Part shown: piece after piece, positions 7,908 through 60,726 of the stretch
Layout: every line of letters begins with the position of its first letter
Position numbering within the stretch: position 1 is the first letter of the stretch
NCBI GenBank assembly: GCA_024275015.1
Contig: JAJRZW010000016.1
Location: forward strand, 6,899 to 70,898
DNA from: Deltaproteobacteria bacterium
Lineage (GTDB): Bacteria; Desulfobacterota; Desulfobulbia; Desulfobulbales; JAJRZW01
Direction: 5' to 3'
DNA: 64,000 nucleotides
Translations under genes and position numbers: made by a program
The notes under the pieces: generated by a model
Told to the model about the DNA's origin: nothing
What the model saw: only the letters and a program-made list of their open reading frames with translations
Database searches by the model: none

Positions 7908-9296
7908 ATGGAAAAAATACTTATTGTCGATGACGAACTGAGCATGAGGGAATTCCTCAAGATCCTCCTTGAAAAGGAAGGATATGATGCCATGGTTGCC
8001 GCCGACGGCGATGCGGCCCTTGCGGCCCTGGGGAACAACGCCGTCGATCTCCTGATAACCGACGTCAGGATGCCCGGAACCAGCGGCCTTGAGCTGCTCA
8101 AGCAATGCAAGGACGACAACCTCAATCTGCCGGTGGTGATGATCACCGCCTTTGCCTCCCCTGACGACGCCGTCTTTGCCATGAAGCAGGGGGCCTATGA
8201 TTACATCACCAAACCGTTCCAGGTCGACGAAATCAAGACCGTGGTAAAAAACGCCCTGAAAAGCCGGGCATCCATCCCCGAGAAACCGCTTGAATCAGGG
8301 CAGACAAGCTTCCAGGGCATTGTCGGGCGAAGTCCGGAAATGGGCAAGATATTCGACCTGATCCGACGTATCGCCCCCACCCCGGCAAACGTCCTGATCC
8401 AGGGGGAGTCCGGCACCGGCAAGGAGCTTGTCGCCCGGGCCATCCACGCATTAAGCCCGGCCGCGGGCCACGCTTTTGTCCCCATCTCCTGCAACGCCAT
8501 CCCCGAATCCCTGTTCGAATCCGAGCTCTTCGGCCATGTGAAAGGCTCGTTCACCGGGGCGGTGGCCAACAAGGAAGGATTGTTGGTCCAAGCTGATAAA
8601 GGCAGCGCATTTTTCGATGAAATCGGCGAACTGACCCCCTTCATCCAGACCAAGCTCCTCCGGGTTCTCCAGGAACGGGAATTTAAAAAGGTCGGCGACA
8701 CCGCGACCACCAGGGTGAACCTGAGGATCATTTCAGCCACCAACAAAGACCTTGAGGAAGAGGTAATCAACGGCGACTTCCGTGAAGACCTCTTCTACCG
8801 TCTGGCGGTGATCCCCCTGCGGATTTCGCCGCTGCGGGAACGAAAGGAAGATATTCCCCTTCTGATTGACCATTTCCTTGAAAAATACTCACGCCGTTTC
8901 GATAAAAACATCACTGATATCTCCACCTACGCCCGTCAGGTTCTGATGGAATACGATTTTCCCGGCAATGTCCGCGAACTTGAAAACATCATTGAACGAG
9001 GGGTCGCCCTTGAAGGCTCCAATATCATCCTCCCGGAGAGTCTCACCCTCTCAAGCCACCGCAAGGACACCACGACAGACGATACGAGCTCAGGCGATAC
9101 CCGCCCGGTCACCGCCCCCTTTTCCGAAGAACGCCTCTTTGACATCGGCCTTGAAAAAATAATGGCCCAGACGGAAAAAAGACTTATCGAACGGGGCCTG
9201 GCCCGGGCCGGAAACTCAAAGATCAAGGCGGCGGAACTGTTGAAGATCAGTTTCAGATCCATCCGCTATAAAATCAAGAAATACGGAATAAAATGA
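7908..9296 (+). CDS. Sigma-54-dependent response regulator (NtrC family: REC + AAA+ + Fis-type HTH)
   Basis: Track ORF 7842..9296. MEKILIVDDELSMREFL..DLLITDVRMPG is the receiver, GESGTGKELVARAIH is Walker A, GAFTGA appears in the variant form GSFTGA, and the C-terminal HTH reads AAELLKISFRSIRYKIKKYGI. The start is moved to 7908. Confidence 0.9.
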   Translation: MEKILIVDDELSMREFLKILLEKEGYDAMVAADGDAALAALGNNAVDLLITDVRMPGTSGLELLKQCKDDNLNLPVVMITAFASPDDAVFAMKQGAYDYITKPFQVDEIKTVVKNALKSRASIPEKPLESGQTSFQGIVGRSPEMGKIFDLIRRIAPTPANVLIQGESGTGKELVARAIHALSPAAGHAFVPISCNAIPESLFESELFGHVKGSFTGAVANKEGLLVQADKGSAFFDEIGELTPFIQTKLLRVLQEREFKKVGDTATTRVNLRIISATNKDLEEEVINGDFREDLFYRLAVIPLRISPLRERKEDIPLLIDHFLEKYSRRFDKNITDISTYARQVLMEYDFPGNVRELENIIERGVALEGSNIILPESLTLSSHRKDTTTDDTSSGDTRPVTAPFSEERLFDIGLEKIMAQTEKRLIERGLARAGNSKIKAAELLKISFRSIRYKIKKYGIK

Positions 9297-10960
9297 CCTT
9301 CGCGGCCGCCCTGCCCCCCCCCCCCATGGGACGAAATAAAAGAATCCTCCAATGGCACTTCATGGGCCGGCTTGTAGTCTTAAGTCTCCTTATGGGGGTA
9401 AGCCTCCTGATTGAGGGGCGCAGCCACGGCAGCGCCTCCTTTTTCGTCCCGGCCCGCTACCTCCTGGGATTCATTGCCGCCCTCTACTTTTACACCCTTG
9501 TCGGCGCCCTGATTCTCAATAAGATCAAACGGATATCGATGTTCGCCGGAATCCAGATCGCCGGCGATATCGCCATGATCACCCTGTTGGTAATGGCAAG
9601 CGGCGGCAGCCAGACCATATTTACCGCCATCTACTTCTTCCCGATCATCACCGCGTCTTTTCTCTTCAAACGGGTCGGGACCCTGTTCATCGCCTCACTC
9701 GCCACCATCCTCTACGGTACAGCTCTGCTTCTGGAATACTTCGGCTACGTCGCCTTCTTCAACCTGTGGAGTTCCCCGCTCAGCGATATCATGATGGTTC
9801 TCCACTTTTTCGCCATTCACGGTCTCCTGTTTTTTCTCGTCGCCGGATTGAGTATCTTTCTGGCCGAGCGCATGAGATCCACCGAGCGGGAGTTGAGCCG
9901 GAGTTCAAGGGATTATGACCGCCTTCAGATCCTCTACCGCCAGGTATTCAACGACATCACCACCGGCATCATCACCCTTGCGGCCGACAACCGGATAACC
10001 TCGCTTAACCCTGCCGCCACCGAGATCACCGGCTACCAAGCCGCGGAACTGATCGACCGGCAAATAAACGCCATCTTCCCCGGATTTGAACTGGATTCCA
10101 CCGGAGGACAGAGAACCGTGGCCACCCTTACCCGCAAGAATGGCCGGACGATACCGGTGGGATTTTCCTGGAACCTGCTGAACATGCCGGAACCATGCGA
10201 CGACTGCCGGGTCATCACCATGCAGGACTTAAGCCGCATCCAGGAGATGGAGAAAAAGATAAAACAGGCGGAAAAAATGGCGACCATCGGCGAAATGGCG
10301 GCCGGCATTGCCCATGATTTCAGGAACCCCCTGGCCGCTATCTCCGGTGCCGCCCAGGTATTGGATGATGATACCGCCTCAAACTCGGCTGATTCCCGCC
10401 TGGCGGAAATCATCGTCCGGGAATGTTCCCGGATGGAAGAAACAATTACCGACTTCCTCCGTTTTTCCAAACCGGCACCACCGGAGATGGAATGGTTTTC
10501 CCTCCATCCGATGATCGATGAAATAATCGCCATGTTTGCCCACGGCAAAAAATACAATGAGATCCCGATGACCATTGTCAACCTTACCCCCCCCGACCTC
10601 GACTGCTGGGCCGATCCGGACCAGAGCCGTCATATACTCATGAACCTTGTCGCTAACAGCCTCAACGCGACCAACAACAGTACGGAAGACCCGCTTATCA
10701 CCATCCAGGCGACAGAAAAAAAGACAGGGGAAAATAGTGATCAGACGGTAATAGAGGTCGAGGACAACGGCACCGGAATAAAGGAAGAACTCAAGGAAAA
10801 AATATTTGAACCATTCTTTACTACCCGGGAAAACGGCACCTGCCTGGGGCTGGCCATTGTCAAACAGATCGCCGAAAACCATAAGGGCCGGGTGGAACTT
10901 GAAAGCGCGACCGGAAAGACCATATTCCGCCTCTATCTGCCGCTACCGGGGGAAGGATAA
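9293..10960 (+). CDS. Membrane sensor histidine kinase (multi-TM N-terminus, PAS, HisKA, HATPase_c; PilS/NtrB-like architecture)
   Basis: The ATGA start/stop overlap with the upstream regulator is present. About 6 hydrophobic segments are followed by a PAS domain (ITGIITLAADNRITSLNPAATEITGY), the H-box AAGIAHDFRNPLAAI and the G-boxes VEDNGTGI..GTCLGLAIV. The start is ambiguous between 9293 and 9326 (see the C12 tract finding). Confidence 0.85.
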   Translation: MTFAAALPPPPMGRNKRILQWHFMGRLVVLSLLMGVSLLIEGRSHGSASFFVPARYLLGFIAALYFYTLVGALILNKIKRISMFAGIQIAGDIAMITLLVMASGGSQTIFTAIYFFPIITASFLFKRVGTLFIASLATILYGTALLLEYFGYVAFFNLWSSPLSDIMMVLHFFAIHGLLFFLVAGLSIFLAERMRSTERELSRSSRDYDRLQILYRQVFNDITTGIITLAADNRITSLNPAATEITGYQAAELIDRQINAIFPGFELDSTGGQRTVATLTRKNGRTIPVGFSWNLLNMPEPCDDCRVITMQDLSRIQEMEKKIKQAEKMATIGEMAAGIAHDFRNPLAAISGAAQVLDDDTASNSADSRLAEIIVRECSRMEETITDFLRFSKPAPPEMEWFSLHPMIDEIIAMFAHGKKYNEIPMTIVNLTPPDLDCWADPDQSRHILMNLVANSLNATNNSTEDPLITIQATEKKTGENSDQTVIEVEDNGTGIKEELKEKIFEPFFTTRENGTCLGLAIVKQIAENHKGRVELESATGKTIFRLYLPLPGEG

Positions 10961-59918: not shown

Positions 59919-59992
59919 ATGGGGGATGGTCTAAGGGTAAGACAGCAGACTCTGACTCTGCCTATCGGGGTTCGAATCCCTGTCCCCCAGCC
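59919..59992 (+). tRNA. tRNA-Gln (anticodon CUG), CCA encoded
   Basis: The hand fold gives acceptor TGGGGGA/TCCCCCA, D arm GTCT-AAGGGTA-AGAC, anticodon arm GCAGA-CTCTGAC-TCTGC, T arm CGGGG-TTCGAAT-CCCTG, then G and CCA, followed by a T8 run. Confidence 0.88.
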
Positions 59993-60273
59993 ATTTTTTT
60001 TATTCTTCTGCCTTCTGCTCTCCGCCTGAAAAACAGTGACATGAATTGTCGACAACATCCATAAATGACACTTTTTGTCATAAAAGCCGGACTGCCAGAA
60101 AGAACCAAACCAGGGCGGCAGGCCGTGAAAAAACAGGGAAAACATATTTTTTACTTGAGTTTCACCTCTGGCACATTATATGAATATATAATAACAGACG
60201 TAGGCTACAAACCCGGAGACAACGGGAAAAGTCAAGCTGAATACTTCAACAACACCTTATGGAGGGAGAGAAC

Positions 60274-60726
60274 ATGCTCAAGATGCTCAGAAACACAAAC
60301 AAGGACAAGGGTTTCACCCTGATCGAGCTGATGATCGTTGTCGCGATCATCGGTATCCTCGCCGCGGTCGCCATCCCGGCGTACATGACCTATATTCAAA
60401 AATCCCGGGTCACCTCCCTGGTATTCCCAGGAATGCATTCTATAGAGACCAGCGTCGGCCTCATGTATGCAACCCAGAGCACCATGCCCCTTACCCAAGC
60501 CGACCTCAACCGGGTAATGTCTGATGCGGATACTACTTATTTTGCTGTTGACACCACAAACGTTGGTGGAGTAAGAGGCATAGAGTTTACCATCCTGAAA
60601 ACAGCCAGATTTAAAAATCTTGGGAGCAAGTCCATTATTGCAATACCTTCCTATGCTAACGGTAAAATCGCAAAATGGAACCTCAGCGGTTCCGTTGCCG
60701 AGTTGCTGGCTTTAGACAAGGAATAG
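60274..60726 (+). CDS. pilA: Type IV (major-type) pilin precursor
   Basis: [13 protein letters not shown]|[24 protein letters not shown] is a class III signal peptide with the G-1/F+1/E+5 prepilin peptidase site. GGAGGGAG lies 5-6 nt upstream of 60274; the track ATG at 60259 lies inside this SD. Confidence 0.88.

What the first reader, a model, noticed from the sequence alone, without database searches (positions are those of the whole stretch)
9314..9325. C12 homopolymer exactly at the response-regulator / histidine-kinase junction: candidate contingency (phase-variable) switch
Seen directly. Twelve consecutive C lie at 9314-9325, 18 nt after the regulator stop (TGA 9294-9296). They sit between the two possible kinase starts: the ATG at 9293 (ATGA overlap, giving MTFAAALPPPPMGRNK..) and the ATG at 9326.

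No Shine-Dalgarno is visible before 9326, so translational coupling from 9293 through the tract is plausible. In that case a +/-1 slippage would truncate the kinase.

From established knowledge, G/C homopolymers of 8 or more are hypermutable by slipped-strand mispairing and drive ON/OFF switching in Neisseria, Haemophilus, Campylobacter and others. Tracts this long are otherwise rare in GC-rich coding DNA.

A second C8 run lies inside the same gene (10587-10594). The proposed consequence is inference: stochastic switching of a sigma-54-dependent regulon, and the window also carries a type IV pilin gene that such PilS/PilR-like pairs often control.
Basis: partly seen in the sequence, partly recalled or inferred. 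Interest (0 to 1): 0.6.

Follow-up and report, generated by a model that had tools for sequence, protein, structure and literature searches.

The report
C12 run starting a sensor-kinase gene
A run of twelve C's sits where a regulator gene ends and its partner sensor-kinase gene begins, and most likely encodes four prolines at the kinase's start; it could slip, but nothing shows it is an evolved on/off switch, and one run this long is about what chance predicts for this genome.

Summary
C12 lies at 9314-9325. The regulator's TGA (9294-9296) overlaps ATG 9293, and a second in-frame ATG (9326) directly follows the tract.

The pair is an NtrC-type sigma-54 activator followed by a PilS-type (6TM-PAS-HisKA-HATPase) kinase. 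This gene order is conserved across the order Desulfobulbales.

Leader length in 120 homologues favours the 9293 start. On that reading the tract is four CCC codons (PPPP, residues 8-11).

In silico, one C more or fewer ends the 9293 frame after 15 or 27 residues. ATG 9326 stays in the kinase frame at any tract length.

The switch reading has no positive support:
- The tract is the genome's longest G/C run, but models of order 0-5 expect 0.16-3.9 runs of 12 or more.
- The other long runs show no bias towards gene starts.
- None of 111 related loci has a run near the kinase start.
- MutS and MutL are present.

One oddity remains: this genome avoids CCC-CCC, so an all-CCC PPPP is unusual.

Verdict: a real, lineage-specific, probably coding and slippage-prone tract. 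It remains an untested candidate of a known kind (bvgS, Campylobacter flgS/flgR).

The parts
7908..9296 (+). NtrC-family sigma-54-dependent response regulator (REC, AAA+ sigma-54 interaction domain, HTH_8), 462 aa, ending in the TGA of the ATGA overlap
   Evidence: Pfam: Sigma54_activat 8e-65, Response_reg 2e-31, HTH_8 3e-11. The NCBIfam best hits, AtoC and NtrC, are below their cut-offs. Orthologues at 60-83% identity lie upstream of the kinase in 27 related loci.
9293..9295 (+). Upstream candidate start of the kinase (ATG overlapping the regulator's TGA). This is the favoured start.
   Evidence: It gives 20 residues before the conserved Trp, against 20-29 (5th-95th percentile) in 120 homologues. 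It gives the same 17-residue leader before ILQW as the close homologue P0003 (66% identity). It is the start recorded for this protein in the public collection. Overlapping starts recur in relatives L022, L025 and L026.
9314..9325 (+). C12 homopolymer, equal to CCC x4 (Pro8-Pro11) in the 9293 frame
   Evidence: Read directly. Longest G/C run in the genome. The only one of 24 Pro runs of 4 or more that is encoded entirely by CCC.
9326..9328 (+). Second in-frame ATG (Met12), directly after the tract. It is an alternative or fallback start whose frame does not depend on tract length.
   Evidence: It would leave only 9 residues before the conserved Trp, an outlier among homologues. No Shine-Dalgarno-like sequence precedes it.
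9293..10960 (+). PilS-type sensor histidine kinase (6TM_PilS, PAS, HisKA, HATPase_c), 555 aa
   Evidence: Pfam: 6TM_PilS 5e-18 (65.9 bits, cut-off 27), HisKA 4e-15, HATPase_c 1e-22, PAS 7e-7. 566 homologues at E<=1e-50, several named PilS (NtrC family) by JGI.
9337..9339 (+). TAA that ends the 9293 frame when the tract is C13 or C10 (a 15- or 14-residue peptide), 11 nt after ATG 9326
   Evidence: In-silico tract variants.
10587..10594 (+). C8 run inside the kinase gene, encoding Thr-Pro-Pro. Ordinary.
   Evidence: There are 74 G/C runs of length 8 in the genome.

Best explanation
**What it is.** The C12 run is a real, lineage-specific homopolymer. It most likely lies inside the coding sequence of a PilS-type sensor kinase. 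That kinase starts at ATG 9293, which overlaps the stop codon of its NtrC-type partner, so the two genes are translationally coupled (ATGA).

**What it encodes.** The run reads CCC x4, giving Pro8-Pro11. These residues lie in the short, poorly conserved cytoplasmic leader that precedes the first transmembrane helix.

**How it probably arose.** It is best read as a chance or neutral product of a proline-rich, weakly constrained segment in a genome that uses CCC for 38% of prolines. It is not best read as an evolved contingency locus.

**Likely side effects (inferred).**
- Four prolines right after the start should pause ribosomes and need EF-P. That would lower kinase output relative to the regulator.
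- A run of 12 C should gain or lose a base far more often than ordinary DNA. Such slips would produce cells in which the 9293 frame ends after 14-28 residues.
- In those cells the kinase could be made only from ATG 9326, by independent initiation or re-initiation, and probably at a lower level.

**Shown versus inferred.** Shown: the tract and its coordinates, the frames, the domain content, the gene order, the homologue leader lengths and the genome statistics. Inferred: which start is used, the slippage, the pausing and any effect on phenotype.
For: **Tract, frames and overlap:**

**Domains:**

**Start at 9293**
- 120 homologues have a median of 24 residues before the conserved Trp (5th-95th percentile 20-29). 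The window has 20 from 9293 and 9 from 9326.
- P0003 (66% identity) has a 17-residue leader before ILQW, the same length as the window's long form.
- The Pfam 6TM_PilS profile reaches back to about residue 8.
- ATG starts overlapping the regulator's end occur in L022, L025 and L026. L026 also has a Pro-rich leader.

**Chance-level length**
- 0.16-3.9 G/C runs of 12 or more are expected per genome. One is observed, on a smooth tail.

**No contingency signature**
- The 29 other G/C runs of 9 or more are spread through ORFs, with relative positions 0.10-0.98.
- None of 111 related loci has a G/C run of 8 or more within 200 nt of the kinase start.
- The same-genus genome and the three closest homologues have ordinary junctions with spacers of 4-27 nt.
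- MutS and MutL are present.

**Sporadic Pro-coding C runs elsewhere in this operon**
- In another family of the order, the orthologous regulator has a C10 encoding APPPY in its variable linker.

**Polyproline in kinases is common**
- More than half of E. coli histidine kinases carry polyproline motifs (PMC6023141).
- Such motifs are enriched in the first 50 residues of proteins (PMC5811046).
- EF-P is present in this genome.
Against: **Codon choice.** If the tract is coding, an all-CCC PPPP is unusual for this genome. CCC-CCC dicodons run at 0.47 times expectation and CCC x3 occurs 2 times against 10 expected. The other 23 Pro runs of 4 or more all break the C run, mostly with CCG. With the codon use seen inside Pro runs, about 0.02 such tracts are expected per genome. 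This could mean either recent origin or maintenance by selection.

**Position.** The tract sits in the first 33 nt of a global regulator's partner gene, which is where known phase-variable tracts often lie.

**Start site.** It is not proven. The leader is not conserved in sequence, and the regulator's own start also lacks an obvious Shine-Dalgarno sequence, so initiation at 9326 cannot be excluded.

**Missing data.** No population or strain data were available.
Confidence: 0.55

Rival explanations
1. The tract is a genuine contingency (phase-variable) switch. Slipped-strand mispairing in C12 reversibly moves the kinase in and out of the 9293 frame. This produces subpopulations with full, reduced or no kinase, and so a stochastically varying sigma-54 regulon.
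For: - The tract length is well above the length at which C/G runs vary in culture in B. pertussis, which is longer than C8 (PMC1891110).
- It lies in codons 8-11 of the favoured frame.
- C11 and C13 truncate that frame at 27 and 15 residues.
- An all-CCC run goes against the genome's avoidance of CCC-CCC.
- There are precedents for tracts in two-component genes: bvgS C6/C7 and C. jejuni flgR and flgS of a sigma-54 system (PMC3930126).
Against: - Length variation could not be observed.
- Long tracts are not over-represented and are not concentrated at gene starts, unlike in genomes that rely on contingency loci.
- The tract is absent from all 111 related loci, including the same-genus genome.
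- Mismatch repair genes are present.
- ATG 9326 keeps a route to the kinase at any tract length.
- The organism is an environmental member of the Desulfobulbales known from one draft assembly. No lifestyle argument for bet-hedging is at hand.
Confidence: 0.15
2. The kinase starts at ATG 9326, and the C12 run is a non-coding 29-nt spacer between the two genes. Length changes would then alter only the spacing and composition of the intercistronic region, with at most a modest effect on re-initiation.
For: - ATG 9326 is in frame and abuts the tract.
- Spacers of 3-37 nt between regulator stop and kinase start are the commonest arrangement in relatives.
- The close relative L114 also has a C-rich stretch without a Shine-Dalgarno sequence before its kinase ATG.
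- The genome's avoidance of CCC-CCC in coding DNA fits better with a non-coding tract.
Against: - The leader would be 9 residues before the conserved Trp, and only about 3 of 120 homologues are that short.
- The long form has the same leader length as P0003, 17 residues before ILQW.
- The 9293 ATG is in frame, the frame is open, and it forms the classic ATGA coupling signal. My rough estimate, not computed with a tool, is that this combination arises by chance about 5% of the time.
- There is no ribosome-binding sequence before 9326.
Confidence: 0.2
3. The exact tract length is a sequencing or assembly artefact. The true sequence may have a different number of C's or an interrupted run, and the feature as printed does not exist in the cells.
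For: - The genome is a 76-contig draft that is 93% complete.
- Long homopolymers are error-prone on several sequencing platforms (established knowledge).
- One of three tatC copies is split at an A9 run.
- First-stage notes elsewhere in this genome list several frameshifts at A/T runs (unchecked apart from tatC).
Against: - The assembled length keeps ATG 9293 in frame with the kinase.
- 25 of the 30 G/C runs of 9 or more lie inside uninterrupted ORFs, and the other five are intergenic without split genes.
- Frame breaks at homopolymers of 7 or more (7.1%) are barely above the rate at random sites (6.0%).
- The tract lies 16 kb inside a 143-kb contig.
Confidence: 0.1

Closest known systems
Bordetella pertussis bvgS poly-C tract (C6/C7) that switches the BvgAS virulence two-component system
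   Same: A C homopolymer lies inside the coding sequence of the sensor kinase of a two-component system, and one extra C truncates the kinase (PMC1891110). In silico the same consequence holds here for the 9293 frame.
   Different: - In bvgS, length variation and the phenotypic switch have been demonstrated. Here neither could be tested.
- The bvgS tract is internal to the gene. This one is at codons 8-11 and is followed at once by a second in-frame ATG.
- The B. pertussis genome has more long C/G tracts than chance predicts. This genome does not.
Campylobacter jejuni flgR / flgS phase variation (sigma-54 flagellar two-component system)
   Same: Homopolymer indels in the genes of an NtrC-type sigma-54 activator and its kinase give reversible ON/OFF control of an RpoN regulon (PMC3930126). 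The window's pair belongs to the same regulatory class, and rpoN is present in the genome.
   Different: - The flgR tracts are A/T runs.
- To my knowledge C. jejuni lacks MutS/MutL-type mismatch repair and carries many contingency loci. This genome has MutS and MutL and shows no genome-wide tract signature.
- No variation was observed here.
Polyproline motifs in histidine kinases and membrane sensors (E. coli EnvZ, CadC) that need EF-P and tune protein copy number
   Same: Consecutive prolines occur in a membrane sensor, such motifs are enriched near N-termini, and EF-P is present (PMC6023141 and PMC5811046).
   Different: - The EnvZ and CadC motifs are conserved and have been tested functionally.
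- This PPPP is not conserved even in homologues at 66% identity, so a tuning role is only an inference.
PilS-PilR two-component system controlling type IV pilin (Pseudomonas, Geobacter, Myxococcus)
   Same: The kinase has a 6TM_PilS membrane domain followed by PAS, HisKA and HATPase, and its partner is an NtrC-type sigma-54 activator. JGI names homologues PilS.
   Different: - The gene order here is regulator then kinase. To my knowledge the model organisms have pilS then pilR.
- The only pilin gene in the window is 50 kb away and has no convincing sigma-54 promoter.
- NCBIfam gives only sub-threshold AtoS/AtoC and NtrC hits.

Membership tests
Simple-sequence contingency locus (phase variation by slipped-strand mispairing) | A homopolymer long enough to be unstable, placed in the 5' coding region or promoter of the gene it controls | tested here: met
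   C12 lies at codons 8-11 of the favoured reading frame. C/G tracts longer than C8 varied within cultures of B. pertussis (PMC1891110).
Simple-sequence contingency locus (phase variation by slipped-strand mispairing) | Tract length varies within a population or between closely related strains | not testable with these tools
The kinase's cluster has one member on one contig. The metagenome scan gave at most 36% identity.
Simple-sequence contingency locus (phase variation by slipped-strand mispairing) | A change in tract length switches expression of the gene product on or off | tested here: inconclusive
   In silico, C10/C13 give 14/15 residues and C11/C14 give 27/28 residues from ATG 9293. 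ATG 9326 stays in the kinase frame at every length, so residual expression is possible. No expression data exist.
Simple-sequence contingency locus (phase variation by slipped-strand mispairing) | Long tracts are over-represented relative to base composition and concentrated at gene starts or promoters, as in genomes that use this strategy | tested here: not met
   One G/C run of 12 or more is observed against 0.16-3.9 expected. Runs of 6-8 are depleted relative to order 0. The 29 other runs of 9 or more are scattered along ORFs.
Simple-sequence contingency locus (phase variation by slipped-strand mispairing) | A tract, of whatever length, is present at the same site in relatives | tested here: not met
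   None of 111 related loci has a G/C run of 8 or more within 200 nt of the kinase start. The junctions of the same-genus genome and of the three closest homologues were read directly.
PilS/PilR pilin-regulating two-component system | Kinase with a six-helix PilS-type membrane domain plus PAS, HisKA and HATPase, and an NtrC-type partner | tested here: met
   PF25323 6TM_PilS at 65.9 bits (cut-off 27) plus the other domains. The regulator has REC, Sigma54_activat and HTH_8.
PilS/PilR pilin-regulating two-component system | Genomic linkage to a type IV pilin gene that has a sigma-54 promoter | tested here: not met
   The pilin-like ORF at 60259-60726 is 50 kb away. Upstream of it there is only TGGCAC-N5-ATGA, which lacks the -12 GC. 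Matches at this stringency occur at chance frequency in the window, 59 against 55.7 expected.
PilS/PilR pilin-regulating two-component system | Control of pilin transcription by the pair | not testable with these tools
   This needs genetics or transcriptomics.

The most novel reading that the evidence does not exclude
The C12 tract and the ATG that abuts it together form a slippage-driven dosage switch, not a plain ON/OFF switch.

- At C12 (and C9 or C15) the kinase is made by tight termination-restart coupling at the ATGA overlap.
- At C13 or C10 a 15- or 14-residue peptide ends at TAA 9337-9339, only 11 nt past ATG 9326. Ribosomes could restart there and make a leaderless-length kinase at a lower level.
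- At C11 or C14 the decoy frame runs 48 nt past ATG 9326, and kinase output would be lowest.

The population would then hold three heritable, reversible kinase-to-regulator ratios of a sigma-54 system in a free-living sulfur-cycle bacterium.
Probability: 0.06. Interest if true: 0.6.

Novelty: new member of a known kind. Interest (0 to 1): 0.25.

Why it matters
If the tract did switch, it would be phase variation of a sigma-54 two-component system in an environmental, non-host-associated member of the Desulfobulbales. Contingency loci are little documented in such organisms. It would also mean that a whole regulon varies stochastically between cells.

As the evidence stands, the value is mainly cautionary. 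A striking homopolymer at a striking position can still be within genome-wide chance. Judging such candidates needs a genome-wide tract census, comparison with relatives and determination of the start site before a switch is invoked.

The observed avoidance of CCC-CCC dicodons is a small but real sign that this genome selects against C runs in coding DNA. That makes this one exception worth an amplicon test.

Tried and rejected
1. **Reads.** Tract heterogeneity is untested.
2. **Same-species sequences.** The protein search found no homologue above 66% identity. The cluster look-up showed a single member. The metagenome scan gave at most 36% identity. No strain comparison was possible.
3. **RNA structure at the junction.** Folding 9266-9385 gave -21.7 kcal/mol with a z-score of +0.99. 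There is no structure to speak of, so a structural role for the C run was dropped.
4. **Repeat or mobile-element scar.** The junction sequence is unique in the genome. Rejected.
5. **C run as a ribosome-binding site.** Several G runs in this genome sit just upstream of starts and look like Shine-Dalgarno sequences. This tract is C on the coding strand, so the idea was rejected.
6. **Genome-wide test for homopolymer assembly errors.** Frame breaks occurred at 7.1% of homopolymers of 7 or more and at 6.0% of random sites. The test also flags ordinary gene junctions, so it is weak. It gives no clear sign of systematic homopolymer error.
7. **Link to the pilin gene through a sigma-54 promoter.** Only a half-site was found, and matches were at chance frequency. 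Not supported.
8. **DNA alignment of the junction with the three closest loci.** The sequences are too diverged in the leader to show how the tract arose.
Full report
**1. The observation**

- Twelve C lie at 9314-9325.
- The upstream gene ends with TGA at 9294-9296, and an ATG at 9293-9295 overlaps it (ATGA).
- The ORF 9293-10960 is open for 555 codons and begins MTFAAALPPPPMGRNKRILQW.
- In that frame the tract is exactly four CCC codons.
- A second in-frame ATG at 9326-9328 directly follows the tract.
- The 22 nt before 9326 are GGCCGCCCTG plus the C run, so no Shine-Dalgarno-like sequence is present.
- Before 9293 there is only a weak GGA, 5 nt upstream.
- The C8 run at 10587-10594 exists and encodes Thr-Pro-Pro.

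**2. The genes**

The upstream gene (7908-9296) encodes a REC, sigma-54 AAA+ and HTH_8 activator of the NtrC family. The downstream gene encodes a kinase with a PilS-type six-helix membrane domain, a PAS domain, HisKA and HATPase_c. NCBIfam gives only sub-threshold AtoS/AtoC and NtrC matches.

The genome is a 2.45-Mb draft of 76 contigs with 56% G+C. Names that sources give to homologues place it in the Desulfobulbales.

The regulator-then-kinase order is conserved. In 27 of the 30 loci fetched from relatives in the order, the regulator orthologue (60-83% identity) lies directly upstream of the kinase orthologue. In most of these loci the kinase start lies between 14 nt upstream and about 40 nt downstream of the regulator stop.

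rpoN is present in the genome.

**3. Which start?**

In 120 homologues the number of residues before the conserved Trp of the (L/I)QW motif has a median of 24, with a 5th-95th percentile range of 20-29. The window has 20 from ATG 9293 and only 9 from ATG 9326.

One of the closest homologues, P0003 (66% identity), has a 17-residue leader before ILQW. That is the same length as the window's long form, and both have a Pro at position 8. The Pfam 6TM_PilS profile, extrapolated from its first aligned position, reaches back to about residue 8 of the long form. Overlapping starts also occur in relatives L022, L025 and L026. L026 has the same ATGA overlap and a Pro-rich leader.

I therefore favour 9293 at roughly 3 to 1. 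The leader is not conserved in sequence, so this is not proof.

**4. Is the tract more than chance?**

It is the longest G/C run in the genome. The counts for lengths 8 to 12 are 74, 22, 6, 1 and 1, which is a smooth geometric tail. The expected number of G/C runs of 12 or more per genome is:

| Markov order | Expected runs of 12 or more |
|---|---|
| 0 | 0.86 |
| 1 | 3.9 |
| 2 | 0.25 |
| 3 | 0.69 |
| 4 | 0.16 |
| 5 | 0.29 |

One such run in this genome is unremarkable.

Seen as coding sequence, the tract is less ordinary.
- CCC supplies 38.5% of prolines, but CCC-CCC dicodons occur at 0.47 times expectation.
- CCC x3 occurs twice against 10 expected.
- Of 24 Pro runs of 4 or more, this is the only one encoded entirely by CCC.
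- Depending on whether overall or in-run codon use is taken, 0.5 or 0.02 such tracts are expected per genome.

So the genome does select against C runs in genes, and this tract is an exception. That fits either a recent origin or maintenance by selection.

**5. Tests for a contingency-locus signature**

a. The 29 other G/C runs of 9 or more are spread along ORFs, with relative positions from 0.10 to 0.98. Five are intergenic. There is no concentration at gene starts.

b. None of 111 related loci (relatives in the order, metagenome contigs and the two extra contigs) has a G/C run of 8 or more within 200 nt of the kinase start. The junctions of the same-genus genome (L002, 21-nt spacer) and of the contigs carrying P0003 (27 nt) and P0005 (4 nt) are ordinary.

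c. MutS and MutL are present.

d. A C10 encoding APPPY lies in the variable linker of the orthologous regulator in another family of the order. Pro-coding C runs therefore appear sporadically in weakly constrained parts of this operon.

**6. Consequences of slippage (in silico)**

From ATG 9293, C13 and C10 give MTFAAALPPP(P)HGTK and stop at TAA 9337-9339. C11 and C14 give products of 27 and 28 residues. ATG 9326 stays in the kinase frame at every length.

Bacterial ribosomes can restart at nearby start codons after termination. This is established knowledge, recalled and not checked in a paper here. On that basis the out-of-frame states may give reduced kinase and not zero kinase. That step is an inference.

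The region has no significant RNA structure and is not a repeat.

**7. What could not be done**

- The kinase is known from one contig of one assembly.
- Length variation is the defining property of a phase-variable tract, and it is therefore untested.

On assembly quality:
- The tract length keeps 9293 in frame.
- Long G/C runs elsewhere sit in intact ORFs.
- Frame breaks at homopolymers (7.1%) are barely commoner than at random sites (6.0%).
- One of three tatC copies is split at an A9 run.
- Earlier first-stage notes list other frameshifts at A/T runs.

A length error cannot be excluded.

**8. Comparison with known systems**

The closest precedents are the C6/C7 tract in Bordetella pertussis bvgS (PMC1891110) and the homopolymer switches in Campylobacter jejuni flgR and flgS, which belong to a sigma-54 two-component system (PMC3930126).

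The window's tract has the position and the in-silico consequence expected of such a switch. It lacks the genome-wide and comparative signatures, and its variability is unknown.

A non-switch reading is at least as natural. [quoted passage not shown] EF-P is present in this genome.

The PilS label rests on the membrane domain alone. The pilin gene is 50 kb away and has no convincing sigma-54 promoter.

**9. Verdict**

The best reading (0.55) is an ordinary, lineage-specific, probably coding C12/PPPP tract. It is physically prone to slippage but is not shown to be an evolved switch.

| Reading | Confidence |
|---|---|
| Ordinary coding tract (best explanation) | 0.55 |
| Non-coding spacer, with the kinase starting at 9326 | 0.20 |
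| Genuine phase-variable switch | 0.15 |
| Assembly length artefact | 0.10 |

Interest is modest. If the tract did switch, it would be a new member of a known kind in an unusual, environmental lineage.

Noticed in passing
whole genome (G000); example at window 9314-9325: CCC-CCC dicodons occur at 0.47 times expectation, and CCC-CCC-CCC occurs 2 times against 10 expected. CCG-CCG is at 1.72 times expectation. Coding DNA in this genome avoids C runs even though CCC is the second commonest Pro codon.
   Followed up: yes
L005:3380-3389 (minus strand; genome G039, another family of the order): A C10 run lies inside the orthologous response-regulator gene. It encodes APPPY in the variable linker between the AAA+ and HTH domains. 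This is a second, independent long C run in this operon family.
   Followed up: partly
L016:545-557 (genome G018): A 13-nt G/C run lies about 200 nt beyond the 3' end of the kinase orthologue. Its context is unknown.
   Followed up: no
G000 contigs C4:17450-17459, C20:35294-35301, C76:56644-56651: G10 and G8 runs on the coding strand sit 3-10 nt upstream of the start codons of downstream genes, and at the very end of the upstream ORF. They look like Shine-Dalgarno sequences made of pure G.
   Followed up: partly
G000 contig C55:12506-12514: A G9 run occupies codons 2-4 (MRGGAV...) of a 776-codon ORF and also the last codons of the upstream ORF. It is another long homopolymer at a gene junction.
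   Followed up: no
G000 contig C62:80359-80544 and 79910-80383 (minus strand): One of three tatC copies is split into two frames that meet at an A9/T9 run (C62:80365-80373). The two other tatC copies are intact. This is either a real pseudogene or a homopolymer length error.
   Followed up: partly
G000 contig C62:3196-3205: A G10 run forms the loop of an 11-bp perfect hairpin (GGCCGGCTTCC aa G10 a GGAAGCCGGCC) in an intergenic region.
   Followed up: no
window 60169-60183 and 60259-60726: A type IV pilin-like ORF (..[16 protein letters not shown]..) has a perfect -24-like TGGCAC about 90 nt upstream but no -12 GC (TGGCAC-N5-ATGA). The stretch at about 59920-59990, just upstream, looks like a tRNA gene by eye. 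It was not checked with the tRNA tool.
   Followed up: partly
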